From assembly GCA_001799565.1 (NCBI GenBank), contig MGTS01000042.1, positions 157,793 through 221,792 of the forward strand: a stretch of DNA of 64,000 bases. Reading direction: 5' to 3'. This document shows, one piece after another, positions 9,292-62,028 of the stretch. This stretch comes from Elusimicrobia bacterium GWA2_51_34. Its GTDB lineage: Bacteria > Elusimicrobiota > Elusimicrobia > Elusimicrobiales > UBA9959. Made by a program: the position numbers and the translations under genes. The notes below the pieces were generated by a model, which worked only from the letters and a program-made list of their open reading frames with translations, searched no databases and had not been told where the DNA came from. How positions within the stretch are numbered: position 1 is the first letter of the stretch; each line of letters begins with the position of its first letter.

Positions 9292-9397
9292 AAGGTCACA
9301 TGCCACAAGTCAGCTTAGTCTCAAGTTTCAAGTTACAAGTTCAAGCGAACTCACATTCTGGACTTGTGACCTGTGACCTGTGACTTGTGACTTGTAA
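9292..9397. repeat. Heptamer-arm hairpin, GTCACAR dialect, AACTCACATTCT loop
   Basis: Left arm is made of ..cacaagt/caagttt units and the right arm is gacttgtgacctgtgacctgtgacttgtgacttgtaa. The loop motif is shared with 26564.. and 29688... Confidence 0.8.
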
Positions 9398-10948: not shown

Positions 10949-11061
10949 CAGTCTCAAGTCACAGGTCACAAGTCACAAGTGAAAACAAGACAATCACAAG
11001 TCCCCAGTAAACTGCAGAACTGCTATTTACTTGTGACCTGTGACTGGTGTCCTGTAACCTG
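10949..11061. repeat. Heptamer-arm hairpin, GTCACAR dialect
   Basis: Left arm ctcaagtcacaggtcacaagtcacaagt... and right arm acttgtgacctgtgactggtgtcctgtaacctg. Confidence 0.75.
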
Positions 11062-11894: not shown

Positions 11895-12049
11895 AGTCAC
11901 AGGTCACAAGTCACCAGTCACAAGTAATAAATAGGGAAAGTCCTGGGGCTCATGTCACAAAACACAGGTACCAAGTCACATGTAACAAGTCATCAGTAAC
12001 GGCAAAGAGCCTCCTTAATACTTGTGACCTGTGACTTGTGACTTGTGAC
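11895..12049. repeat. Heptamer-arm hairpin, GTCACAR dialect (double left arm)
   Basis: Left arm agtcacaggtcacaagtcaccagtcacaagt plus a second degenerate arm. Loop is ggcaaagagcctccttaata. Right arm is cttgtgacctgtgacttgtgacttgtgac. Confidence 0.75.
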
Positions 12050-12835: not shown

Positions 12836-12926
12836 GACTACAAGCTAGTAAGCTGGTAGGCTAGTATGCTGGTATGCTTTTTAAGGAACTCCTTATAAGG
12901 CCTACTAGCCTACCCGCCTACTAGCA
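12836..12926. repeat. Octamer-arm hairpin, CTACCAGC dialect, palindromic AAGGAACTCCTT loop
   Basis: Left arm agctagtaagctggtaggctagtatgctggtatgc, loop tttttaaggaactccttataagg, right arm cctactagcctacccgcctactagc. Shares a 27-nt identical run with 42143... Confidence 0.8.
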
Positions 12927-12936
12927 GACCCATGCC

Positions 12937-16259: not shown

Positions 16260-16286
16260 TAGTCGAGAGTTTAGAGTCGAGAGTCT
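16260..16286. repeat. 3' arm (mRNA sense) of the stem bracketing four-helix gene 1, GAGAGTC/TAGAGT dialect
   Basis: tagtcgagagtttagagtcgagagtc is complementary over tagagtttagagt and flanks to 16667-16701. Confidence 0.7.
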
Positions 16287-16639
16287 GGGATTTTATTTGA
16301 ATTTGAGAGTCCTGTTATCATTCTCCCTATTCCATCAGCATCAGAATACAAAGTTTTATGTTTGACTTCTTCAATATAATTCAACTCTAGAGAAAGTCGC
16401 AGGAGAGTTGTTGTTTCACAAAGCGATCCATAAGACATAGACAAAAAATGTTTAAATTCTTTTTTAGATTTTCGCCCGGCGCCTTCAGCGATATTAAGCA
16501 CCACTGAAACTGCCGCCCTGCGTATTTGAGATGTGACCCCGAACATCTCATCCGCAGGAAAGCCCTTGGTCACCATATAGATTTCCTTAGTAAAAGATAA
16601 TGCCTTTTGCCAGACCATTAGTTTTTCAAAGCCAAACAT
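16271..16639 (-). CDS. Four-helix-bundle protein (23S rRNA intervening-sequence protein / Avd family)
   Basis: 122 aa with the hallmark pattern LxVWQKA...FPxxExFGxTSQxRRAAxSVxLNIAEGxGR...GSLxE. The last codons (DSRL) lie in the repeat arm. Confidence 0.85.
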   Translation of the reverse strand: MFGFEKLMVWQKALSFTKEIYMVTKGFPADEMFGVTSQIRRAAVSVVLNIAEGAGRKSKKEFKHFLSMSYGSLCETTTLLRLSLELNYIEEVKHKTLYSDADGIGRMITGLSNSNKIPDSRL

Positions 16640-16666: not shown

Positions 16667-16701
16667 GACACTCTAAACTCTAGACTCTCCACTCTACACT
16701 A
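16667..16701. repeat. 5' arm (mRNA sense) of the stem bracketing four-helix gene 1
   Basis: gacactctaaactctagactctccactctacacta. Overlaps the stop of the FAD-subunit gene. Confidence 0.7.
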
Positions 16702-17608: not shown

Positions 17609-17641
17609 AAGTCACAAGTCACAGGTCACAAGACACAAGCC
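17609..17641. repeat. 3' arm (mRNA sense) of the stem bracketing four-helix gene 2, GTCACAR dialect
   Basis: aagtcacaagtcacaggtcacaagacacaagcc is complementary (about 21 bp with 1 mismatch) to each unit at 18053-18225. Confidence 0.75.
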
Positions 17642-17672: not shown

Positions 17673-18023
17673 CTAAAGACTTTTATAGAAACACCACAAC
17701 AAACGGCCTGTCTCACACCTTAACGTCTCAACCTCAGCAAAAACTTTTTCCGGCAAATATCCCACGTCTTTACAAAACTCAAGCAGGTATTCGGTCTCGG
17801 CAAGAGAACCAAGAGCTATGTTTGCAAACTGCTTTAATTCTTTATTCCCTTGCCTACCGGTTCCCTCAACTATATTCACAGGCACAGATAGTGCGGCACG
17901 CCTCAACTGGCTTGTAACCCCATAAACTTCATCTTTTGGAAAAGACGATGTAGCGGCATAAACGGCCTTTGCCAATGCATCCGCTTTCTTCCATACCTCA
18001 AGCTTTTTGTATCCCTTTTCCAC
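17673..18023 (-). CDS. Four-helix-bundle protein (23S rRNA intervening-sequence protein / Avd family), paralog 2
   Basis: 116 aa with GTG start. Same hallmark pattern (LEVWKKA...FPKDEVYGVTSQLRRAALSVPVNIVEGTGR...GSLAE). Confidence 0.85.
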   Translation of the reverse strand: MEKGYKKLEVWKKADALAKAVYAATSSFPKDEVYGVTSQLRRAALSVPVNIVEGTGRQGNKELKQFANIALGSLAETEYLLEFCKDVGYLPEKVFAEVETLRCETGRLLWCFYKSL

Positions 18024-18052
18024 GCTTATCCCTTCTGATTTCTGTCTTGTGA

Positions 18053-18225
18053 CAACATAAATTCTGCTACTTGTGACCTGTGACTTGTGACAACAGAAAT
18101 TCTGCTACTTGTGACCTGTGACTTGTGTCTTGTGACAACAGAAATTCTGCTACTTGTGACCTGTGACTTGTGTCTTGTGACAACAGAAATTCTGCTACTT
18201 GTGACCTGTGACTTGTGTCTTGTGA
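18053..18225. repeat. Tandem array, one 38-nt plus three 45-nt units (caacagaaattctgctacttgtgacctgtgacttgtgtcttgtga)
   Basis: Units start at 18053, 18091, 18136 and 18181. The three full units are identical or nearly identical. Each contains a GTCACAR-dialect arm. Confidence 0.9.
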
Positions 18226-18226
18226 C

Positions 18227-18254
18227 AGCAAAATGAGCGAAAGCTCATTTTGCT
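18227..18254 (-). terminator. 12-bp stem with GAAA-type tetraloop right after the cyclase stop codon
   Basis: agcaaaatgagc-gaaa-gctcattttgct. There is no clean U-run beyond the stem, so it may be a stabiliser or processing hairpin rather than a terminator. Confidence 0.3.
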
Positions 18255-26563: not shown

Positions 26564-26663
26564 TACAAGTCACAAGTCACAAGCCATATTAATCTCAAGT
26601 TGCAGGTCACAAGTCTGAAGTAAACTCACATTCTGCACTTGTGACGTGTGACTTGTGACTTGC
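26564..26663. repeat. Heptamer-arm hairpin, GTCACAR dialect, AAACTCACATTCT loop
   Basis: tacaagtcacaagtcacaagcc...ctcaagttgcaggtcacaagtctgaagtaaactcacattctgcacttgtgacgtgtgacttgtgacttg. Confidence 0.8.
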
Positions 26664-27371: not shown

Positions 27372-27402
27372 TGTAGATAGGGCACAATGACAAGGCTATT
27401 AT

Positions 27403-27520
27403 TGCCATAGGCCGTATGCCATAGGCTTTATGAAGAATTTCCTTAATACGGCTTAAGAGCATATGGCCTATGGCAATAGCCGTATCTAAAATTTACGGCT
27501 TATGGCTTAAGCTTATGGCT
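27403..27520. repeat. Hairpin, CCATAGGC dialect
   Basis: Left arm ttgccataggccgtatgccataggc, loop tttatgaagaatttccttaatacgg, right part catatggcctatggcaatagccgtatctaaaatttacggcttatggcttaagcttatggc. Confidence 0.8.
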
Positions 27521-27527
27521 TTACTTT

Positions 27528-29687: not shown

Positions 29688-29786
29688 TGCAAGTCACAAG
29701 CCAGCATAATTTCAAGTTTCAGGGTACAAGTTTCAAGCAAACTCATATTCTTCACTTGTGTCCTGTGACTTGTGTCTTGTGACCTG
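29688..29786. repeat. Heptamer-arm hairpin, GTCACAR dialect, AAACTCATATTCT loop
   Basis: ttgcaagtcacaagcc...ttcaagtttcagggtacaagtttcaagcaaactcatattcttcacttgtgtcctgtgacttgtgtcttgtgacc. Confidence 0.8.
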
Positions 29787-39215: not shown

Positions 39216-39327
39216 CAGGTTCACGGTTCAGTGGTTCAAAGGTTCAACGGTTGGGAATCAGGGAACACAAAAAGACCGTGAAAAAAATAACCGTGAACCG
39301 CTGAACCGTGAACCTGGTAACCTGAAC
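39216..39327. repeat. Hairpin, GGTTCAC/GGTTCAG dialect
   Basis: Left arm caggttcacggttcagtggttcaaaggttcaacggttgggaatcagggaac and right arm ccgtgaaccgctgaaccgtgaacctggtaacctgaac. Confidence 0.8.
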
Positions 39328-45611: not shown

Positions 45612-45722
45612 TAGCGGGCAGGCTGGTAGGCGAGTAGGCCAGTAGGCTGGTATGCGGGTAAGTTTTTTGTAGAATTCACAATTAGGCCTACAAGCATACA
45701 CGCCTACCAGCCTACTAGCTGG
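45612..45722. repeat. Octamer-arm hairpin, CTACCAGC dialect
   Basis: Left arm gcgggcaggctggtaggcgagtaggccagtaggctggtatgcggg and right arm aattaggcctacaagcatacacgcctaccagcctactagc. Confidence 0.8.
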
Positions 45723-47639: not shown

Positions 47640-48282
47640 AGAAAGACTGGGTCTCTGGGGCTTGAAACTTGACGCGGAGACTTTGGCGAAACTTAAAATA
47701 CTTGCGCGTGAAGTAAAAGAGAAAAACGCGGGACTTAATTTAATTTCAAAAAACGACGAGCCATGTTTTTGGAGCCGCCACCTTGCCGACTCGCTGGCCG
47801 CGGCGCCCCTGCTTCAAAAACTTGTTTTACCAGGCGCGCTGGCTGCAGACGCGGGCTCAGGGCCGGGTTTCCCGGGCCTTCCGCTAGCTGCCGCCCTGCC
47901 GTCGGTCAATTTTGAGCTTTGGGATTCAAACCGCAAAAGGGTGGAGTTCGCCCTGTGGGCCGCCGGCTCAATGAAACTGAAAAACGCCGCGGTATTCTAC
48001 CGCAGAATAGGCCAAAGCGGGGCGTTTGAGAAGGCCCGCTACGATGCCGTGCTTGAACGGGCCATGGGAAAACTTGAAAATATACTGCCCCAATGCTTAA
48101 ATATGCTTAAATCAGGCGGGGTGTTCCTGGCCTGGCAGAGCGGCCTTGAAGACGCCGCCGCCCCGGGCTCGCTAAAAGCTCTTACGAAAGCGGGCGCGAA
48201 GCTTGAAACCAGGTTCACCTACGCACTTCCGGGTGAAACACGCGAGCGGCTTATACTGGTTTTTCGAAAAGGAAAGTTGTGA
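47623..48282 (+). CDS. rsmG: 16S rRNA (guanine527-N7)-methyltransferase RsmG
   Basis: SAM-binding [12 protein letters not shown]. The ATG at 47623 ([10 protein letters not shown]...) overlaps the mnmG end by 17 nt. Confidence 0.85.
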
Positions 48283-48384
48283 GTTTGGAGTTTAGGAGTT
48301 TGGAGTTCAAGAGTTTTTGAGTTTAGAGTCCTCAAACTCCCAACTCCCCAACTCTCAACCCCTGACTCTCAACTCCAAACTATC
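48281..48384. repeat. Heptamer-arm hairpin, GGAGTTT/AAACTCC dialect
   Basis: Left arm gagtttggagtttaggagtttggagttcaagag and right arm ctcaaactcccaactccccaactctcaacccctgactctcaactccaaac. Confidence 0.8.
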
Positions 48385-48408
48385 AATACTCGTTATGGAG
48401 ATAATACA

Positions 48409-48940: not shown

Positions 48941-49058
48941 GTTAGTGGAGAGTGTAGAGTTGAGAGTGTAGAGTGTGAAGAGAACTCTCTTCCAATCTCT
49001 ACACTATCTACTTCAATTATTTCTGCTCTACACTCCAGACTCTACACTCTCCACTATC
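48941..49058. repeat. Heptamer-arm hairpin, TAGAGTG dialect (outer 17 bp perfect)
   Basis: tagtggagagtgtagag ... ctctacactctccacta, with further gagagtgtagagtg / ctctacac units inside. Confidence 0.8.
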
Positions 49059-53608: not shown

Positions 53609-54490
53609 ATGCCCCACCCTAAATATTTTGACGCGCATAACCACATTCAAAACTATTCGGGCCCGTGTGAAGCCGGCGCAGGGCGCGCGGGACTGATACT
53701 CTTAAACGGCACAGCGCCGGATGACTGGCAAAAGGTCCTGGACCTGGCCGCCGCCGACGAGCGGATTTGGCCCTGTTTCGGCCTGCACCCCTGGTTCATA
53801 AATAAAGCCGGACCGCGCTGGCTTGAAGAACTGGAACTGTTTCTTAAGCGCGCGCCCTCCTGCGTGGGCGAGATAGGCCTGGACGGCGCGAAAAATACCG
53901 GCGCCAAGCGGCAGGAGGAAGTTTTCACGTCCCAGCTTAAACTGGCCGCCCGGCTCAGGCGGCCCGTCTGCCTGCATTGCGTAAAAGCCTGGGGAAAGAT
54001 GTTGAAAATAATTAAAGAAGAACTGCCGGGAACTTTCATGCTGCACTCTTACGGCGGCCCGGCCGAAATGATAAAAGAATTTTCCGCGCTGGGCGCTTAT
54101 TTTTCGTTCGGCTCCGCGATAATGGATCCGAAAAGGGGGAAATTACGCGAAGCGCTTTTAACCGTTCCTCCGGATCGCCTGCTTTTTGAAACCGAGCCGT
54201 CCTACTTCGCCAAGGCTTCGAAGGGACGTGGTCCTGCGAAGCTATTGTCGAGCGAAGCAAACCCGTCCTCCTTCGCCAAGGCTTCGGAGGGACGTAGTCC
54301 TGCGAAGCTGTTGTCAAGCGAAGCAGACCCGTCCTCCTTCGCCAAGGCTTCGGAGGGACATGGTCTGCCGGTATTGATTTCCGCAGCGGCGGACGTTATG
54401 GGCAGACCCGCCCAGGAACTTGCGGAACTTTCCTGGGTCAATGGAATTAAATTTTTAGGAGATATAGTAGATGTAAATAGTAAAGAGTAA
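53609..54490 (+). CDS. TatD-family metal-dependent hydrolase carrying an in-frame tandem repeat insertion
   Basis: 293 aa with an N-terminal FDAHNH metal motif and a TatD-like core. Residues around 197-254 are encoded by the 66-nt repeat. Confidence 0.8.
   Translation: MPHPKYFDAHNHIQNYSGPCEAGAGRAGLILLNGTAPDDWQKVLDLAAADERIWPCFGLHPWFINKAGPRWLEELELFLKRAPSCVGEIGLDGAKNTGAKRQEEVFTSQLKLAARLRRPVCLHCVKAWGKMLKIIKEELPGTFMLHSYGGPAEMIKEFSALGAYFSFGSAIMDPKRGKLREALLTVPPDRLLFETEPSYFAKASKGRGPAKLLSSEANPSSFAKASEGRSPAKLLSSEADPSSFAKASEGHGLPVLISAAADVMGRPAQELAELSWVNGIKFLGDIVDVNSKE
54197..54369 (+). repeat. 66-nt palindromic element, 2.6 tandem copies, in-frame in tatD
   Basis: Units start at 54197, 54263 and 54329. 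Units 1 and 2 differ at 6 of 66 positions. They encode PSYFAKASKGRGPAKLLSSEAN / PSSFAKASEGRSPAKLLSSEAD / PSSFAKASEGHG. Confidence 0.9.
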
Positions 54491-54576
54491 AGCGTAAATA
54501 GTCACTTCTACTCACCATTCACTCTTTACTTTTTACCCTTCACTCTTTACACTTTACGCTTTACTCTTTACTTTCT
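54467..54576. repeat. Heptamer-arm hairpin, GTAAAGM/CTTTAC dialect
   Basis: Left arm gtagatgtaaatagtaaagagtaaagcgtaaatagtcac and right arm cactctttactttttacccttcactctttacactttacgctttactctttac. The left arm encodes the TatD C-terminus. Confidence 0.8.
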
Positions 54577-54580
54577 TATT

Positions 54581-55333
54581 ATGACCGAAGACCGACTCGC
54601 GCGCATAAGACTGCTGGTGGGCTCCGGCGGCGTTGAACGCCTGAAGAATTCCTTTGTTGTTGTGGCCGGGCTTGGCGCGGTAGGCAGTTACGCCGTGGAA
54701 GGCCTGGCAAGGGCCGGCGTGGGCCGCCTTCGGCTTGTGGATTTTGACATTATAAAGGAAAGCAACATCAACCGCCAGCTTTACGCTTTGGGCTCTACCA
54801 TCGGAAAACACAAAGCCGACGTAGCCGCCGGCCGGGTGCTGGACATCAACCCTGCCTGCCGCGTGGAACCGCTTAAAATTTTCGCGGCGGACGAAACTTT
54901 TGACACAATACTTGAAGGCGACCCCGACATAGTAATAGACGCCATTGACGCCATGGGCCCGAAGACCGCCTTCATAGCGGAAACGCAAAAGAGGGGGATA
55001 AAACTTATCTCTTCCATGGGCGCGGCCCTGCGCACCGACCCTTCCGCCATACGAGTGGGCCCCTTCGCGCAAGCGCACGGCTGCCCGCTGGCCGCCAGGC
55101 TTAAGTACTGGCTCAGGAAGAAGAACTCGCCCCCGCAGTTCACCTGCGTTTACTCCGTAGAACCGCTGGGCCGTCTTCGCCTTGCGGCACGCCAGGCTGC
55201 GGCTCCTGAAAAAGATTATTACGACCGCGGCCGCCGGCGGGCCGCTTTAGGCAGCCTTCCCACTATTACGGGAATTTTCGGCCTCACTATAGCCAATACC
55301 GCGATACAAACATTGATAGCGAGTAGGGGTTAG
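54581..55333 (+). CDS. tcdA: tRNA threonylcarbamoyladenosine dehydratase (ThiF/E1-like)
   Basis: 250 aa with a Rossmann GLGAVGS motif. TcdA/CsdL-like length and pattern. Confidence 0.8.
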   Translation: MTEDRLARIRLLVGSGGVERLKNSFVVVAGLGAVGSYAVEGLARAGVGRLRLVDFDIIKESNINRQLYALGSTIGKHKADVAAGRVLDINPACRVEPLKIFAADETFDTILEGDPDIVIDAIDAMGPKTAFIAETQKRGIKLISSMGAALRTDPSAIRVGPFAQAHGCPLAARLKYWLRKKNSPPQFTCVYSVEPLGRLRLAARQAAAPEKDYYDRGRRRAALGSLPTITGIFGLTIANTAIQTLIASRG

Positions 55334-55474
55334 CGAATAGCGAATAGCGACGGAGTTTCTTAAATAAAGTTCCCGTTCCTCCCCAGTCGCGGACAACGCC
55401 AGAGGCCCGCGACAGGCCAGAGTCACTATTCGCTAACCCCTATTCGCTATTCGCTTTCCTACTATTCGCTACGC
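55321..55474. repeat. Heptamer-arm hairpin, GCGAATA dialect, with a partial copy of the 95-nt element in its loop
   Basis: Left arm aggggttagcgaatagcgaatagcga, loop contains cagtcgcggacaacgccagaggcccgcgacaggccagagtcact, right arm attcgctaacccctattcgctattcgc. Confidence 0.8.
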
Positions 55475-55619: not shown

Positions 55620-56069
55620 ATGGGCGCTCTATACGGTGAATATTCATATATCATGGACGGCAAGAGCCGTATATTCATTCCCGCCCGGTTCCGTCAAGAG
55701 CTGCAGAAAGAAGACAAAACGCATTTCATGATCACCATCGGCTTCGACCGCTCGCTCTCGCTGTTCCTGCCGTCTAAGTGGGAAGAACTCATTTCAAACA
55801 ACATGCAGATTTTCAATTACGAGAATAAGGAAGAGGAAAGAGCCTTTAAAAGGTATTTCTTCGGCAACGCCGCGGACGCGTCTTTGGATGAACAGGGCAG
55901 GATACTGCTGCCCCACAACCTTAAAGCCTTCGCGAATTTAAAAAAGGACGTGCTAATACGGGGCGTCGGGAACAAGGCGGAAATATGGGATGTGCAAGCC
56001 TGGACAGAATACAAAAAAACAAAAGTAGACCCCTCGCTGGACAAATTCAGCAAGATCTTCGACCTATGA
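55620..56069 (+). CDS. mraZ: Transcriptional regulator MraZ
   Basis: 149 aa with duplicated SpoVT/AbrB-like halves (GKSRIFIPARFR ... QGRILLPHNL). Confidence 0.9.
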   Translation: MGALYGEYSYIMDGKSRIFIPARFRQELQKEDKTHFMITIGFDRSLSLFLPSKWEELISNNMQIFNYENKEEERAFKRYFFGNAADASLDEQGRILLPHNLKAFANLKKDVLIRGVGNKAEIWDVQAWTEYKKTKVDPSLDKFSKIFDL

Positions 56070-56953
56070 CGGAGAATTACACGCACCTTCCGGTAATGCC
56101 GGAGGAAGTCGCGCGCTTGCTGGTAACAGATAAGGAAGGGGTTTATGTTGACGCCACACTCGGCATGGCCGGGCATACCCTTAAGCTGCTGTCCGTACTG
56201 GGGCCGAATGCGCGGGTTATAGGCGTTGACTGGGACCCCGAGATGGCGGCCATAGCGGCCAAAAATACGGCGGGTTTAGGCGACAGGGTAAAGATCATAC
56301 AGGGCAATTTTGCCAACATTGACGAGATGATGAACCGCGAAAACATTAAAAACATTTCCGGCGTCCTTTTTGACCTGGGCGTTTCTTCTCTGCATTTCGA
56401 CAAAGCCCTGCGCGGTTTCAGCTTAAGGAATGACGGCCCGCTGGACATGCGCATAAACCAGACAAATCCCCTGACCGCCTACGCGATATTACGGTATTGG
56501 CCTTACGAGCAGATAGAACACCTTATCCGCGTTTGCGGCGAGCGCAACGCGGGCAAAATAGCCAGGGCCATAATCACAAAAAGGGAAACCAAACCCCTTG
56601 AAACCACGGGGGAACTCAGGGACCTTGTAGAGCGCGTGCTGCCCTACAGGGGGGAAAAGACCCACCCCGCCACTAAAACTTTTTTATCCCTCCGGGTGGC
56701 CGTCAATTACGAATTTGACAACCTCACGCGCGGCATACAGAAAATAATACCTTTCCTGTCAAAGGGCGGCAGGATAGGGATAATAACTTTCCACTCGCTC
56801 GAGGACCGCATCGTTAAAGAGACCTTCAAATTTATGACCAAGATGGGCGACTGGCACGCTGTCACAAAAAAACCGGTAACCCCGTCGCAGGAAGAAGAGG
56901 CGGCCAACAACCGGGCCAGAAGCGCCAAACTTAGAGTGATAGAGAAGATATAA
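56066..56953 (+). CDS. rsmH: 16S rRNA (cytosine1402-N4)-methyltransferase RsmH
   Basis: The ATG at 56066 forms an ATGA overlap with the mraZ stop. N-terminus HLPVMPEEV and motif DATLGMAGH. Confidence 0.9.
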   Translation: MTENYTHLPVMPEEVARLLVTDKEGVYVDATLGMAGHTLKLLSVLGPNARVIGVDWDPEMAAIAAKNTAGLGDRVKIIQGNFANIDEMMNRENIKNISGVLFDLGVSSLHFDKALRGFSLRNDGPLDMRINQTNPLTAYAILRYWPYEQIEHLIRVCGERNAGKIARAIITKRETKPLETTGELRDLVERVLPYRGEKTHPATKTFLSLRVAVNYEFDNLTRGIQKIIPFLSKGGRIGIITFHSLEDRIVKETFKFMTKMGDWHAVTKKPVTPSQEEEAANNRARSAKLRVIEKI

Positions 56954-60314: not shown

Positions 60315-60437
60315 CTCAGGTTGTCGGGTTCCCGGTTCAGCGGTTCACGGTTAAAGATTAAATAATTTAATATTTTTATTTTCACAATCTTCTTATTCCT
60401 TGATTTTCAACCGTTGAACCATTGAACCGTGAACCAA
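60315..60437. repeat. Hairpin, GGTTCAC dialect with an AT-rich loop
   Basis: Left arm ctcaggttgtcgggttcccggttcagcggttcacggtt and right arm caaccgttgaaccattgaaccgtgaacc. Confidence 0.75.
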
Positions 60438-60459: not shown

Positions 60460-62028
60460 ATGACCCTCACCGACATTCTAAAAAATACGGGGGAAACTCC
60501 GGGCGCGGACGGGTCTGCTTCGCTTAACAATAGTTTCGCAGGACCACGTCCCTTCGAAGCCTTGGCGAAGAAGGACGGCGGCGTGGAAATAACGGCCATT
60601 ACGAACGATTCGCGCAAGGCGGTTAAAGGCGCGCTTTTTTTCGCCCTGCCCGGCGCCAAAACCGACGGAAGCCTCTATATCCGGCAAGCCCTTGAAAACG
60701 GCGCTTCAGCCGTTGTTTCACAAAACGCCGCGGACCCCGCTTTGAAAACCGCCTACCCCTCGGCCGTCTGGCTTCGCACCCCGGACATTTCAGCGCTCCT
60801 TTCCACCGCAGCGGCCAACTTTTACCATAACCCTTCGGCAGAGCTTAAAGTAACAGGGCTTACCGGCACAAAAGGAAAAACCACCACCGCCTACCTTCTT
60901 GAAAGCATACTGGCCGCGCACGGCGACAAGCCGGGCGTGGCAGGCACCATAAACTACCGCGTGAACGGCAGGGTGCTTTCAAAAGCCGCGAACACCACCC
61001 CGCTCGCCCACGACCTGCAGGCCCTGCTTCGCGCTATGGTCGGCGCCGGGGCGAAAAGCGCCATAATGGAAATTTCGTCCCACGCGCTCGCGCTCAAACG
61101 CGCCGACAATGTGCGATTTGACTGCGCCGTATTCACAAACCTGCAAAGCGACCACATGGATTTCCACAAAACCCGCGGGGACTACTTCCTTGCCAAGGCC
61201 CGGCTTTTTGAACTGCTGGCCGCTTCGCCTAAAAAAAACAAAACCGCGGTTATAAACGCGGACGACGAAATGGCCGCTGAACTTATAAGCGGGCTTTCCC
61301 GCGGCCTGAAAACCCTTACCTTTGCCGTTGACGGGAAAGCGGACTTTAAAGCCTCTGCGGTACAAATACTGGAACAAAAAACGCTTTTCAACCTTAACGC
61401 GCCCGGGGGTAAAACGCCTGTCGTCCTTAACCTGCTAGGCCTGCATAATGTTTACAACGCGCTCGCCGCGATAACGGCGGCGTGCGCCATGGGCGTAGGG
61501 CTTGAAACCGCCGTTAAAGGCGTCCAGGCGCTCACACGGGTGCCGGGGCGCCTTGAGCGTATAGACCTGGGGCAGAATTTCACCGTATTTGTGGACTACG
61601 CCCACACCGGCGCGGCCCTTGAAAGCGTGCTTACAAATTTAAAAAAACTGCCGCATGCGAAAATAATCACCGTTTTCGGCTGCGGGGGCGACCGCGACCG
61701 CACCAAACGCGCGCCCATGGGAGCGGTTTCCTGCTCTTTAAGCGACCGGGTTATAATAACAAGCGACAATCCTAGGACCGAGGACCCCGCCCGGATTTTC
61801 TCGGATATTGAAAAAGGACTCGCCGGTGTATTCTTAAATTATGAAACACTCCCCTGCCGCCGGGAAGCCATTTTCAAGGCCATAGCCGCCGCTTCAAAAG
61901 GCGACATCGTGCTTATAGCCGGAAAAGGCCACGAGGACTATCAGATACTAAAGAACGAAACTATCCATTTCAGCGACCGGGAAGAAGCCGAAGAAGCGAT
62001 AAAAAAGAAAATGCAAAATGCAAAATGA
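60460..62028 (+). CDS. murE: UDP-N-acetylmuramoyl-L-alanyl-D-glutamate--2,6-diaminopimelate ligase
   Basis: 522 aa with the GTKGKTTT P-loop, a Mur ligase middle and C-terminal domain pattern, and a DNPR motif. The N-terminus carries one reverse-oriented copy of the 66-nt element. Confidence 0.9.
   Translation: MTLTDILKNTGETPGADGSASLNNSFAGPRPFEALAKKDGGVEITAITNDSRKAVKGALFFALPGAKTDGSLYIRQALENGASAVVSQNAADPALKTAYPSAVWLRTPDISALLSTAAANFYHNPSAELKVTGLTGTKGKTTTAYLLESILAAHGDKPGVAGTINYRVNGRVLSKAANTTPLAHDLQALLRAMVGAGAKSAIMEISSHALALKRADNVRFDCAVFTNLQSDHMDFHKTRGDYFLAKARLFELLAASPKKNKTAVINADDEMAAELISGLSRGLKTLTFAVDGKADFKASAVQILEQKTLFNLNAPGGKTPVVLNLLGLHNVYNALAAITAACAMGVGLETAVKGVQALTRVPGRLERIDLGQNFTVFVDYAHTGAALESVLTNLKKLPHAKIITVFGCGGDRDRTKRAPMGAVSCSLSDRVIITSDNPRTEDPARIFSDIEKGLAGVFLNYETLPCRREAIFKAIAAASKGDIVLIAGKGHEDYQILKNETIHFSDREEAEEAIKKKMQNAK
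60511..60578 (-). repeat. 66-nt palindromic element, single reverse-oriented copy, in-frame in murE
   Basis: The reverse complement ccgtccttcttcgccaaggcttcgaagggacgtggtcctgcgaaactattgttaagcgaagcagaccc differs from tatD unit 1 at about 5 of 66 positions. In murE it encodes GSASLNNSFAGPRPFEALAKKDG. Confidence 0.9.

What the first reader, a model, noticed from the sequence alone, without database searches (positions are those of the whole stretch)
54197..54369. A 66-nt palindromic element is tandemly inserted in-frame (2.6 copies) into a TatD-family hydrolase
- **Repeat:** Units start at 54197, 54263 and 54329 and are about 91 percent identical. The 66-nt period equals 22 codons, so the reading frame is preserved.
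- **Translation:** PSYFAKASKGRGPAKLLSSEAN / PSSFAKASEGRSPAKLLSSEAD / PSSFAKASEGHG.
- **Structure:** Each unit contains a hairpin (gcttcg-aag-ggac-gtg-gtcc-tg-cgaagc).
- **Position in the protein:** The insertion begins right after the LLFETE segment. That corresponds to the conserved ETD-type metal-binding region of TatD proteins, so catalytic competence is an open question.
- **Precedent:** In-frame colonisation of ORFs by small palindromic repeats is established for Rickettsia palindromic elements but is otherwise rare.
Basis: partly seen in the sequence, partly recalled or inferred. Interest (0 to 1): 0.7.

Follow-up and report, generated by a model that had tools for sequence, protein, structure and literature searches.

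The report
Palindromic mobile repeat inside TatD gene
A 66-base hairpin-forming mobile DNA repeat of groundwater Elusimicrobia sits in frame, two and a half times in a row, in a surface loop of a TatD hydrolase gene and once more in the nearby murE gene; this is a new example, in a new phylum, of the "selfish DNA inside protein-coding genes" already known from Rickettsia and some other bacteria.

Summary
A 66-nt unit occurs 2.6 times (54197-54365, 92% matches) inside a TatD-family ORF. The identical array is found in four independent assemblies.

It is an insertion, not a native linker:
- A 72%-identical ortholog has the empty site (GAGCCG|ATAGGG).
- 109 of 112 orthologs lack the segment.
- A fourth copy lies in the opposite orientation, in frame, in murE 6 kb away. 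There, murE orthologs lack exactly 66 nt.
- Further copies occur in other Elusimicrobia contigs. They sit inside IspE, a PASTA protein, a TPR membrane protein, ribosomal protein L19 and others, in four reading frames. Three copies are intergenic.

The unit is two inverted hairpins. It inserts 3' of YCG, often before TCC, apparently without target duplication. AlphaFold models keep both enzyme folds and show the inserts as disordered loops.

- ETE is the native motif of this clade.
- The third unit was cut by a microhomology deletion that also removed the native linker.
- Intragenic REP-type repeats, including clusters, are already documented beyond Rickettsia.

No transposase was found, so the mobilising enzyme is unknown. 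Verdict: interpretation supported; a new member of a known kind; moderate interest.

The parts
53609..54490 (+). Host gene: TatD-family metal-dependent hydrolase, 293 aa (orthologs are mostly about 240-265 aa)
   Evidence: Pfam PF01026 E=9e-44. Best solved relative is E. coli YjjV 1zzm, E=3e-21. 100% identical to a protein of 'Elusimicrobia bacterium GWC2_51_8'. AF2 TIM barrel has pLDDT >90 outside the insert.
54197..54199 (+). Native CCG (Pro197) codon immediately 5' of the inserted DNA; this is the insertion target
   Evidence: The empty-site ortholog L018 reads GAGCCG|ATAGGG. Filled sites in the window, L017 and L019 read GAGCCG|(T/C)CCT(A/C)CTTCGC.
54197..54262 (+).
   Evidence: R1 covariance model 73 bits. 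92-94% identical to copies at other loci.
54263..54328 (+). Unit 2 (PSSFAKASEGRSPAKLLSSEAD)
   Evidence: R1 97.6 bits. Shares the TCC/GGAGG/CTGTTGTC variants with the L022 copy.
54329..54365 (+). Unit 3, left 37 nt only (PSSFAKASEGHG), truncated inside the central hairpin
   Evidence: Shares ACATGG with the L022 copy.
54362..54371 (+). Deletion junction GGTC|TGCCGG joining unit 3 to the native sequence that encodes LPVLISAAA. The right half of unit 3 and about 43 nt of native linker (IGPEAPGPGSGPQG in P0004) are missing.
   Evidence: DNA alignment with L017, L018 and L019. The element has GGTCCTGCG and the native sequence has AGTCTGCCGG / GGTATGCCGG, which gives microhomology. The net gain is 123 nt = 41 codons.
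54215..54242 (+). Central hairpin of unit 1 (GCTTCG-AAG-GGAC-GTG-GTCC-TG-CGAAGC); the same feature in unit 2 is at 54281-54308
60460..62028 (+). Second host gene: murE (UDP-MurNAc-tripeptide synthetase), 522 aa
   Evidence: Pfam Mur_ligase, Mur_ligase_M and Mur_ligase_C. The N-terminus MTLTDILKNTG is conserved with orthologs, so the ORF starts at 60460 and contains the element. AF2 mean pLDDT is 92.7.
60510..60578 (-). Fourth copy of the element (66 nt plus flanking CCG), opposite orientation, in frame in murE (encodes GSASLNNSFAGPRPFEALAKKD)
   Evidence: 92% identical to unit 1. R1 99 bits. Orthologous murE genes L032 and L033 lack exactly 66 nt here. Residues 19-35 have pLDDT <50.

Best explanation
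**What it is**
- The 66-nt unit is a copy of a small non-autonomous mobile DNA element of the REP/RPE type, present in a lineage of groundwater Elusimicrobia.
- Consensus: TCCTTCTTCGCCAAGGCTTCGAAGGGACGTGGTCCTGCGAAGCTATTGTTAAGCGAAGCAGACCCG.
- It is built as two imperfect hairpins in inverted orientation. These can also fold into one long hairpin.

**Shown**
- It inserted after the CCG codon that follows the ETE motif of TatD, in the loop between beta-strand 8 and the C-terminal helices.
- It inserted independently, in the other orientation, into the variable N-terminal linker of MurE.
- Related copies sit in frame in many unrelated genes, and some are intergenic.

**Inferred**
- Insertion is site-directed, 3' of YCG and preferentially 5' of TCC, without target-site duplication. 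That geometry is typical of single-strand (HUH/IS200-IS605/RAYT-like) transposition.
- YCG|TCC is also the element's own end-to-end junction. Each resident copy therefore recreates a target at its boundary, so re-insertion gives seamless head-to-tail arrays with period 66.
- In TatD, two or three units accumulated this way (possibly with one in-situ duplication). A microhomology deletion then fused unit 3 to the native sequence.
- Copies persist in genes because three conditions hold: the length is 22 codons, the frame in use has no stop, and the insertions that survive lie in loops or termini where a disordered Ala/Ser/Lys/Gly/Pro-rich peptide is tolerated.
- The peptide itself probably has no function.
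For: **Repeat and host gene**
- Repeat confirmed and ORF identified.

**Empty sites**
- TatD ortholog L018.
- murE orthologs L032 and L033 lack exactly 66 nt.
- PASTA gene: empty in L034, filled in L022.

**Distribution among orthologs**
- 109 of 112 TatD orthologs lack the segment. The modal loop is 21 aa against 62 aa here.

**Dispersed copies, 85-100% identical to one another, with conserved ends**
- Four loci in two Elusimicrobia MAGs of the genome collection, and 12 metagenome stretches.

**Host genes**
- Pfam-supported: IspE/GHMP kinase, PASTA protein, TPR membrane protein, MurE, TatD; the ParB-HTH match is below Pfam's cut-off.
- From the peptide search: ribosomal L19, an MMPL fragment, a cytochrome-c-like protein.
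- Frames used: +0, +1 (a stop-free variant), -1, -2.

**Intergenic copies**
- L026, L027, L028.

**No target duplication**
- In L022 the left trinucleotide is TCG, matching the native Ser codon (TCA) in L034, while the right end is CCG.
- TCC follows the right end in 7 of 12 copies.

**Structure**
- Both the two-hairpin and the long-hairpin structures are 96-98% base-paired across 11 copies. There is one compensatory U-A to C-G change.

**Array origin**
- Units 1 and 2 are each 94-95% identical to copies at other loci but only 91% identical to each other.

**Protein tolerance**
- TatD: barrel pLDDT >90, insert residues 197-252 pLDDT 38-51.
- MurE: mean pLDDT 92.7, insert residues 19-35 below 50.
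- Catalytic residues are intact.

**Stability**
- The array is identical in four assemblies.
Against: - **No mobilising enzyme found:** None of the 55 ORFs of the window is a transposase or RAYT by Pfam or by the gene tables of overlapping contigs. None was seen next to the other copies.
- **Thin support for no target duplication:** The no-TSD inference rests on one informative site (L022/L034). A 3-bp CCG duplication with one later substitution is not excluded.
- **Array origin unresolved:** Re-insertion and slippage cannot be separated. The identity argument amounts to about 2 sites in 66.
- **No sign of tuning for coding residence:** Four of six frames open is not unusual for this composition (P=0.17 by shuffling), and a length divisible by 3 has a 1-in-3 prior.
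- **Modest hairpin stability:** z is -1.1 to -2.7.
- **Unknown copy number:** The number of copies in the source genome is unknown. Only 2 loci were seen in 64 kb, and none in 43 kb of two related genomes.
Confidence: 0.8

Rival explanations
1. There was a single ancestral insertion in TatD. The array then grew in place by replication slippage or unequal recombination between direct repeats, and the units diverged afterwards. No re-insertion is needed.
For: - The units are exactly head-to-tail with no extra bases.
- Units 2 and 3 share TCC and GGAGG and differ at only 2 of 37 positions.
- Relatives P0002 and P0003 carry a single (variant) copy at the same CCG, consistent with one old insertion.
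- Every other locus read carries a single copy.
Against: - Units 1 and 2 differ at 6 of 66 sites. Each is closer (94-95%) to copies at other loci than to the other (91%).
- The variants that separate them (TTC/TCC, GAAGG/GGAGG, CTATTG/CTGTTG) recur at other loci as subfamily markers.
- The relatives' copy is an 81-nt variant with an extra side hairpin, not the 66-nt form.
Confidence: 0.4
2. The element is a classical MITE. It has imperfect terminal inverted repeats, is mobilised in trans by a DDE transposase, and generates a 3-bp target-site duplication of CCG.
For: - CCG is present at both ends in 10 of 12 copies; L022 starts with TCG and L020 ends with CCA.
- The ends are imperfect inverted repeats (CCGTCCTTCTTCGC vs CGGGTCTGCTTCGC, about 10 of 14).
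- The size is within the MITE range.
- A Tn5-like transposase gene lies next to the TatD ortholog in L017, although it has no evident link to the element.
Against: - A true duplication copies whatever host triplet was hit. Here the flank is almost always the same triplet.
- At the one site where the left flank differs (L022: TCG, native Ser codon per L034), the right end is still CCG.
- No partner IS with matching ends was seen in any locus.
- Tn5/IS4 elements make 9-bp duplications (general knowledge).
Confidence: 0.15
3. The repeat has been co-opted. The hairpin RNA inside the mRNA (stability, pausing or translation control) or the encoded flexible peptide provides a function to TatD and the other hosts, and is maintained by selection.
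For: - The array is identical in strains that differ elsewhere.
- Some intergenic copies lie within about 10 nt of a stop codon, where a hairpin could stabilise a transcript (L028).
- REPs are known to act post-transcriptionally (PMC3733652).
Against: - The hosts are functionally unrelated, and four different reading frames and both orientations are used, so no common peptide is made.
- The close ortholog P0004 (no element) and P0003 (a 45-nt remnant) manage without a complete element.
- There is no Rfam match.
- The inserts are predicted to be disordered.
Confidence: 0.1
4. The segment is a native low-complexity linker of this TatD that expanded by internal duplication, or it is an assembly artefact.
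For: The loop after ETE varies in length among orthologs (12-39 aa without the element). Other small inserts occur there in P0029, P0056 and P0060.
Against: - The same 66 nt occurs in reverse orientation in murE and in unrelated genes and intergenic regions of other contigs.
- Empty sites exist.
- The array is identical in four independent assemblies.
Confidence: 0.02

Closest known systems
Rickettsia palindromic elements (RPEs; Ogata et al. 2000, as summarised in PMC10969869 and PMC3733652)
   Same: - Small palindromic repeats dispersed in the genome.
- A large share sit in frame inside unrelated housekeeping genes, in positions compatible with the protein fold.
- They add a peptide of no known function.
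- No linked transposase is known.
   Different: - Different phylum: free-living groundwater Elusimicrobia rather than an obligate intracellular alphaproteobacterium.
- No sequence relationship was established.
- 66 nt rather than about 100-150 nt for RPE-1.
- Here the element is also found as a seamless head-to-tail tandem array inside an ORF.
CGTC-tagged (and GTAG-tagged) REPs with intragenic copies (Di Nocera, De Gregorio & Rocco 2013, PMC3733652); RPE-4 and RPE-6 belong to the CGTC class
   Same: - A CGTC tetranucleotide lies at the outer end (CCGTCC).
- Two inverted stem-loops are nearly abutting, like 'HH dimers' whose tags face outward.
- Intragenic dimers encode 20-30 aa and clusters encode 43-82 aa.
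- No dedicated transposase is known.
   Different: - Stems here are 7 bp with a bulge rather than 8-9 bp starting with A-T pairs.
- Loops are 14-19 nt rather than 4-5 nt.
- There is no CCA tail.
- The second arm carries GGTC rather than CGTC.
- Elusimicrobia does not appear in the passages of that paper that I read.
- In this element the 'CG' of the tag appears to be host target sequence rather than part of the element.
REPINs mobilised by RAYTs (Bertels & Rainey 2011, PMC3116915)
   Same: - Two inverted REP-like hairpins form one unit of about 70-110 nt that can fold as a single long hairpin.
- The unit is non-autonomous.
- Sequence subfamilies exist.
   Different: - REPINs are extragenic, GTAG-tagged, and accompanied by a single-copy RAYT gene flanked by REPs.
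- None of these three features was found here.
IS200/IS605-family single-strand transposition and its miniature derivatives (general knowledge)
   Same: - Insertion 3' of a short specific sequence.
- No target duplication.
- No true terminal inverted repeats.
- Subterminal hairpins at both ends.
   Different: - No TnpA or TnpB gene has been linked to this element.
- The recognised target (YCG) is shorter than the usual 4-5 nt.
- The hairpins lie closer to the ends.
Bacterial MITEs occasionally found in ORFs (ERIC, BOX, QMITE1, Anabaena MITEs; reviewed in PMC10969869)
   Same: - Small structured repeats that can generate in-frame fusions with host ORFs.
   Different: - Those elements have clear terminal inverted repeats and target duplications.
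- They are mainly intergenic.
- Here most of the loci read are genic (8 of 12), and target duplication is doubtful.

Membership tests
TatD family hydrolase (Pfam PF01026), the host protein | Significant match to the family profile and to solved TatD/YjjV structures | tested here: met
   PF01026 E=9.1e-44, 150 bits against a cut-off of 27. 1zzm YjjV E=2.9e-21; 4pe8/1xwy TatD E=1e-18.
TatD family hydrolase (Pfam PF01026), the host protein | Metal-binding residues: HxH, Glu, His, His, and the acidic residue of the ETD/ETE motif | tested here: met
   H10, H12, E88, H123, H146 and E194 are invariant, and E196 is nearly invariant, in 112 orthologs; all are present in the window protein. The clade uses ETE natively.
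TatD family hydrolase (Pfam PF01026), the host protein | TIM-barrel fold retained despite the insert | tested here: met
   AF2 mean pLDDT 84, pTM 0.80. Eight strand/helix repeats are confident. Only residues 197-252 have low confidence. This is a prediction, not an experiment.
Rickettsia palindromic elements (RPE) | Palindromic repeat found in frame in many unrelated ORFs and also intergenically | tested here: met
   In frame in TatD, MurE, IspE, a PASTA protein, a TPR protein, L19 and others. Three intergenic copies.
Rickettsia palindromic elements (RPE) | Membership of one of the RPE sequence families of Rickettsia | not tested
   No RPE consensus was available in the tools. Host phylum and unit length (66 nt against about 100-150 nt) make membership unlikely. 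The resemblance is functional, not familial.
CGTC-tagged REP superfamily (PMC3733652) | Terminal CGTC tetranucleotide at one end of the stem-loop | tested here: met
   The left end is C-CGTC-C in 11 of 12 copies and TCGTCC in L022. The inverted arm ends in GGTC, and such degenerate tags are allowed in the paper.
CGTC-tagged REP superfamily (PMC3733652) | Stem of 8-9 bp beginning with A-T pairs, loop of 4-5 nt, 3-nt CCA tail | tested here: not met
   Stems are 7 bp with a 1-nt bulge. Loops are 14 nt (left) and 19 nt, or 7 nt with an inner stem (right). There is no CCA tail.
CGTC-tagged REP superfamily (PMC3733652) | Predominant organisation as inverted dimers with tags outside; intragenic units occur | tested here: met
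   Every full copy is a pair of inverted hairpins about 2 nt apart with the tags at the outer ends. 8 of 12 loci are in ORFs.
REPIN/RAYT system | Two inverted REPs forming one mobile unit | tested here: met
   The long-hairpin structure is 98% paired and the two-hairpin structure 96% paired across 11 copies. The model also matches the opposite strand at 36-39 bits.
REPIN/RAYT system | A RAYT (IS200-like tyrosine transposase) gene flanked by the REPs; GTAG tag; extragenic location | tested here: not met
   There is no GTAG tag, and most copies are intragenic. No Y1 transposase was found among the 55 ORFs of the window or the neighbours listed. The rest of the genome could not be searched, so absence of a RAYT is unproven.
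MITE (DDE-transposase dependent) | Terminal inverted repeats plus a target-site duplication of host sequence | tested here: inconclusive
   The ends are imperfect inverted repeats (about 10 of 14). CCG flanks both ends in 10 of 12 copies, but the L022/L034 pair shows host TCG on the left and element CCG on the right, which argues against a duplication. Only one site is informative.
IS200/IS605-type single-strand elements | Insertion 3' of a fixed short sequence, no duplication, subterminal hairpins | tested here: inconclusive
   The geometry is compatible. No enzyme has been identified, and no excision or insertion event was observed.

The most novel reading that the evidence does not exclude
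The 66-nt element would be the Elusimicrobia branch of a cross-phylum superfamily of two-hairpin elements. A 29-nt hairpin module, GTCCTCCTTCGCCAAGGCTTCGGAGGGAC, is identical in MAGs of Omnitrophica, CPR bacteria, Planctomycetes and Alphaproteobacteria.

Under this reading:
- The elements move by an unidentified single-strand (HUH-like) mechanism that targets YCG|TCC.
- That target is the element's own circle junction, so the elements build seamless in-frame tandem arrays.
- They act as a recurrent source of new disordered loops in essential proteins of uncultivated groundwater bacteria.
- The 'CGTC tag' used to classify REPs and RPEs would be partly target sequence. That would give a mechanistic handle on the orphan CGTC class, which has no known transposase.
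Probability: 0.2. Interest if true: 0.7.

Novelty: new member of a known kind. Interest (0 to 1): 0.45.

Why it matters
**Biology**
- In-frame colonisation of essential genes by palindromic selfish DNA extends to a free-living, uncultivated phylum (Elusimicrobia). It is not a peculiarity of Rickettsia or of a few Proteobacteria.
- The TatD site preserves several stages of the process:
  - the empty site;
  - a single variant copy;
  - a half-deleted copy;
  - a 2.6-unit array in which the native linker has been replaced.
- This shows how such elements remodel protein loops.
- The filled/empty pairs also suggest an insertion geometry (3' of YCG, no duplication, target equal to the element's own junction). 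That geometry could guide the search for the unknown enzyme that moves CGTC-type REPs.

**Annotation**
- Such elements mislead gene callers. The NCBI murE model starts inside the element.
- They inflate protein lengths in MAG annotation.

Tried and rejected
- **Rfam:** A gathering-threshold scan of the window and a permissive scan of 54100-54650 gave no family for the element. The only hits were spurious miRNA matches to the neighbouring heptamer hairpin.
- **Forward-frame peptide search:** The 55-aa forward-frame peptide was searched against 1.84 billion representative proteins. The single hit (P0246) is an unrelated repetitive protein, so the search was uninformative.
- **Five-frame peptide search:** A word-indexed search with peptides of five frames gave only 5 hits. 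They added hosts (L19, MMPL, a cytochrome-like protein) but cannot serve as a census.
- **Viral contigs:** No match for either pattern, so there is no sign of a phage vector.
- **Source genome:** GWC2_51_8 gave no match in the species-representative genome scan, so a genome-wide copy count and in-ORF fraction could not be obtained.
- **Covariation:** Copies are too similar (96% mean column identity) to choose between the long-hairpin and two-hairpin folds. There is one compensatory pair only.
- **Adaptation for coding residence:** Tested by shuffling. Four of six frames open is not significant (P=0.17), so the idea is rejected as unsupported.
- **Transposase in the window:** The 55 ORFs look like ordinary cellular genes or have no family match.
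- **P0029/L039 insert:** It does not align to the element. It is a different small palindrome.
- **Rejected readings:** CRISPR-like, intein-like and native-linker explanations were all rejected on anatomy: no spacers, only 22 aa, and empty sites exist.
Full report

Yes.
- Tandem Repeats Finder reports one array at 54197-54365 with period 66, 2.6 copies, 92% matches and no indels.
- The array lies inside ORF 53609..54490 (+), 293 aa. This ORF matches Pfam TatD_DNase at E=9e-44, and its best solved relative is E. coli YjjV.
- A 28-nt core of the unit has 3 matches in the window, against none in 100 shuffles.
- The protein is 100% identical to one from 'Elusimicrobia bacterium GWC2_51_8'.
- The exact protein is recorded on 15 contigs. 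The 270-nt array region is identical in four independent assemblies, including a strain with 21 differences over 13.9 kb.
- Assembly artefact is therefore excluded, and the array is stable in the population.

**2. Insertion or native linker?**

I aligned the protein with 21 and then 111 orthologs.
- Between the ETE motif and the C-terminal helices, 71 of 112 sequences have a 21-residue loop (consensus ETEAPDADAPGWRAGPAG...). The window protein has 62 residues there.
- Only the two closest relatives carry related peptides at that place: P0002 (about 79% identical) and P0003 (about 78% identical).
- The next relative, P0004 (72% identical), has none.

At the DNA level:
- The P0004 locus (L018) reads GAGCCG|ATAGGGCCGGAAGCC..., which is an empty site.
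- The P0002 locus (L017) has, right after the same CCG, an 81-nt variant of the element with an extra side hairpin (TCCGGCGCTTTTGCCCGGA). Native sequence follows it.
- The P0003 locus (L019) retains only the left 45 nt of that variant.
- In the window, two full units and 37 nt of a third follow the CCG. They are fused at GGTC|TGCCGG to the sequence encoding LPVLISAAA.
- Comparison with the relatives shows that the right half of unit 3 and about 43 nt of native linker (IGPEAPGPGSGPQG in P0004) were lost. The deletion lies between short homologies: element GGTCCTGCG and native AGTCTGCCGG.
- The net gain is 123 nt, or 41 codons.

'ETE' is the native motif of this clade, with E196 nearly invariant. 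Every invariant catalytic position (H10, H12, E88, H123, H146, E194) is intact.

**3. The same element elsewhere in the window.**

- A fourth copy, 92% identical, lies on the minus strand at 60510-60578.
- It is inside ORF 60460..62028, a MurE ligase, and reads in frame as GSASLNNSFAGPRPFEALAKKD.
- The N-terminus upstream of it (MTLTDILKNTG) is conserved with orthologs (MTLKEIFKNTG, MKLSRILENSG). The element is therefore inside the gene.
- The alignment shows a clean 22-residue insertion.
- The murE genes of two relatives (L032, L033) lack exactly 66 nt at this point.
- The NCBI gene model (P0121, 488 aa) starts at a TTG inside the element and is probably wrong. Other gene callers give 522 aa.
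- A covariance model built from 11 copies, run with filters off, finds no further copies in the 64 kb.

**4. The element in other genomes.**

- An exact-pattern scan of species-representative genomes found full copies in two other Elusimicrobia MAGs (L003, L006, L008, L015).
- A metagenome scan found 12 more stretches.
- Among 12 copies the consensus is CCG|TCCTTCTTCGCCAAGGCTTCGAAGGGACGTGGTCCTGCGAAGCTATTGTTAAGCGAAGCAGACCCG. Pairwise identity is 85-100% and the ends are sharply conserved.

Host context:

| Locus | Context | Frame |
|---|---|---|
| L029/L006 | IspE-type GHMP kinase | -2 |
| L022 | PASTA-domain protein | +0 |
| L024/L003 | TPR membrane protein | -1 |
| L025 | ParB-HTH-like ORF (Pfam match below cut-off) | +1, using a stop-free variant |
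| L021/L015, L020 | Long hypothetical ORFs of 443 and 280 aa | -1 |
| L026, L027, L028 | Intergenic (L028 is 10 nt after a stop codon) | n/a |
| L023 | Truncated copy, undetermined | n/a |

- With TatD and MurE, that makes 8 of 12 DNA-ascertained loci inside ORFs.
- The coding fraction of the window is 88%. The element is therefore not enriched in genes. Rather, it is not purged from them, unlike ordinary REPs.
- A peptide search added ribosomal protein L19 (C-terminal tail; DNA confirmed in L034, 96% identical), an MMPL fragment and a cytochrome-c-like protein.

**5. Anatomy and insertion geometry.**

- The unit is two imperfect hairpins in inverted orientation.
  - Left: GTCC-TTC ... GAA-G-GGAC.
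  - Right: GGTC-C-TGC ... GCA-GACC.
- It can alternatively fold as one long hairpin (3+6+6+4 bp).
- Both folds are 96-98% paired across 11 copies. There is too little variation to choose between them, with one compensatory U-A to C-G change favouring the left hairpin.
- Folding energies are only modestly better than shuffles (z -1.1 to -2.7).
- All copies are flanked by YCG on the left and end in CCG (CCA in L020) on the right. TCC follows in 7 of 12.
- The PASTA gene gives the one informative pair. The empty L034 site reads ...TTT CAT TCA|TCC GAA GAC. The filled L022 site reads ...AAT TCG[TCC...GAC CCG]TCC GAA GAC.
- In that pair the left trinucleotide is the host Ser codon and the right CCG belongs to the element.
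- This argues for insertion 3' of YCG without target duplication, at sites that resemble the element's own end-to-end junction (CCG|TCC).
- The inferred pre-insertion murE sequence (GCCGCCG|TCCGCGC) fits the same rule. The TatD site was CCG|ATA.
- This geometry is what single-strand HUH transposition gives (IS200/IS605, RAYT). That link is an inference from general knowledge.
- It also predicts that each resident copy offers a perfect target at its boundary, which would produce seamless period-66 arrays.
- Units 1 and 2 are each 94-95% identical to copies at other loci but only 91% identical to each other. Units 2 and 3 share variants with the L022 copy.
- This weakly favours re-insertion over in-place duplication, but the difference is about two sites. 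I rate slippage at 0.4.

**6. Effect on the proteins.**

- The AlphaFold2 model of TatD, with a 112-sequence alignment, keeps a confident TIM barrel (pLDDT >90 for 202 residues, pTM 0.80).
  - Residues 197-252 fall to pLDDT 38-51.
  - They form a disordered excursion between strand 8 and the C-terminal helices.
- MurE is modelled at mean pLDDT 92.7, with residues 19-35 below 50.
- The inserts thus sit where a flexible Ala/Ser/Lys/Gly/Pro-rich peptide is likely to be tolerated.
- The same TatD loop carries other small inserts in P0029, P0056 and P0060.
- Whether a 55-residue loop beside the active-site face affects TatD activity cannot be decided here.

**7. What I could not show.**

- No transposase or RAYT is encoded among the 55 ORFs of the window. 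They look like ordinary cellular genes or have no family match. None was noticed beside other copies.
- The source genome gave no match in the scan of the searchable genome set, so the genome-wide copy number is unknown.
- Two features that look like tuning for coding regions are not statistically remarkable:
  - four of six frames are open (P=0.17 by shuffling);
  - the length is divisible by three (prior of one third; intergenic copies are also 66 nt).
- There is no Rfam family and no viral copy.

**8. Comparison with what is known.**

- The behaviour matches Rickettsia palindromic elements, as summarised in PMC10969869.
- More precisely, it matches the intragenic REP-type repeats catalogued by Di Nocera et al. 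(PMC3733652).
  - Those are GTAG- and CGTC-tagged stem-loops, mostly arranged as inverted dimers.
  - When intragenic they encode 20-30 aa, and clusters encode 43-82 aa.
  - RPE-4 and RPE-6 belong to the CGTC class, which has no known transposase.
- The present element has a CGTC at its outer end and the inverted-dimer layout.
- It fails the stem, loop and tail criteria of the four described CGTC families, and it has no GTAG.
- I therefore do not file it as a member of those families, nor as a REPIN.
- It works like them and is a new sequence family in a phylum that none of the REP papers I read mentions (PMC3733652; for PMC12306157).

**9. Verdict.**

- It is a new member of a known kind. Its main value is the unusually complete series of states at one site (empty, single, half-deleted, tandem with linker replacement) and a testable insertion rule.
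- Interest is moderate (0.45).

Noticed in passing
window 9317-9395, 10950-11061, 11895-12049, 12844-12931, 26565-26662, 27393-27521, 29710-29783, 39217-39327, 45626-45719, 48281-48386, 48944-49055, 54473-54574, 55316-55471, 60327-60436: Many intergenic regions carry two short tandem arrays of a 7-8-nt unit in inverted orientation. Each locus has its own unit, for example (AGTCACA)n/(TGTGACC)n, (GAGTTTG)n/(AACTCYC)n, and (GTAAAGA)n/(ACTCTTT)n right after the TatD stop. They form long hairpins made of heptad repeats. The pair at 60327-60436 brackets the AT-rich region upstream of murE. I know of no description of this.
   Followed up: no
window 16274-16639 (-) and 17676-18023 (-): Two small genes of the '23S rRNA intervening sequence protein' family (PF05635, also matching the related bAvd-like Pfam family) are interspersed in a xanthine-dehydrogenase-like operon. 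Each is flanked by the heptamer arrays (16261-16285 / 16668-16700; 17609-17639 / 18045-18234, the last being a 45-nt-period array). A homolog also sits in relative L033 (4203-4562) at a position where L032 has none, which suggests a mobile gene cassette.
   Followed up: partly
L001-L016 (e.g. L002:3134-3194, L012:4512-4568, L014:5273-5335, L007:3561-3631): The left 29-nt hairpin module GTCCTCCTTCGCCAAGGCTTCGGAGGGAC is identical in MAGs of Omnitrophica, CPR bacteria (Magasanikbacteria, Vogelbacteria, Saccharibacteria), Planctomycetales and Alphaproteobacteria. In Omnitrophica and Planctomycetales it is followed by a second hairpin (TCTGCGAAGC...GCGAAGCAGAG), giving a related two-hairpin element (50-58 bits with the R1 model). 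About 0.3 chance matches were expected for the 22-mer, and 16 were found.
   Followed up: partly
window 60460-60562: The NCBI model of murE (P0121, 488 aa) starts at a TTG inside the palindromic element. The conserved N-terminus shows that the true start is the ATG at 60460 (522 aa). The element misled the gene caller.
   Followed up: yes
L039:2001-2813 (P0029); also P0056 and P0060: More distant TatD orthologs carry other small inserts in the same loop. P0029 has an unrelated short palindrome (ACTTCC...GGAAGT, encoding PHFRSGEVGNSRKCEAD). P0056 and P0060 have an 18-aa insert slightly downstream. The loop is an indel hotspot.
   Followed up: partly
L017:586-2454: A Tn5/IS4-like transposase gene (Tnp_DNA_bind, Dimer_Tnp_Tn5, DruA hits) lies directly upstream of the TatD ortholog that carries the 81-nt element variant. 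No link to the element is evident.
   Followed up: no
L034:8251-8319 and L034:4344-5348: In the metagenome sample that also yielded the half-deleted TatD copy (L019), ribosomal protein L19 carries a full element in frame in its C-terminal tail. On the same contig, the PASTA-protein gene is an empty site for the insertion seen in L022.
   Followed up: yes
window 55620-56069 / 55985-56953: The longest rsmH ORF overlaps mraZ by 85 nt. Other gene callers start rsmH about 80 nt later (295 aa), so the overlap is probably a start-codon artefact.
   Followed up: no
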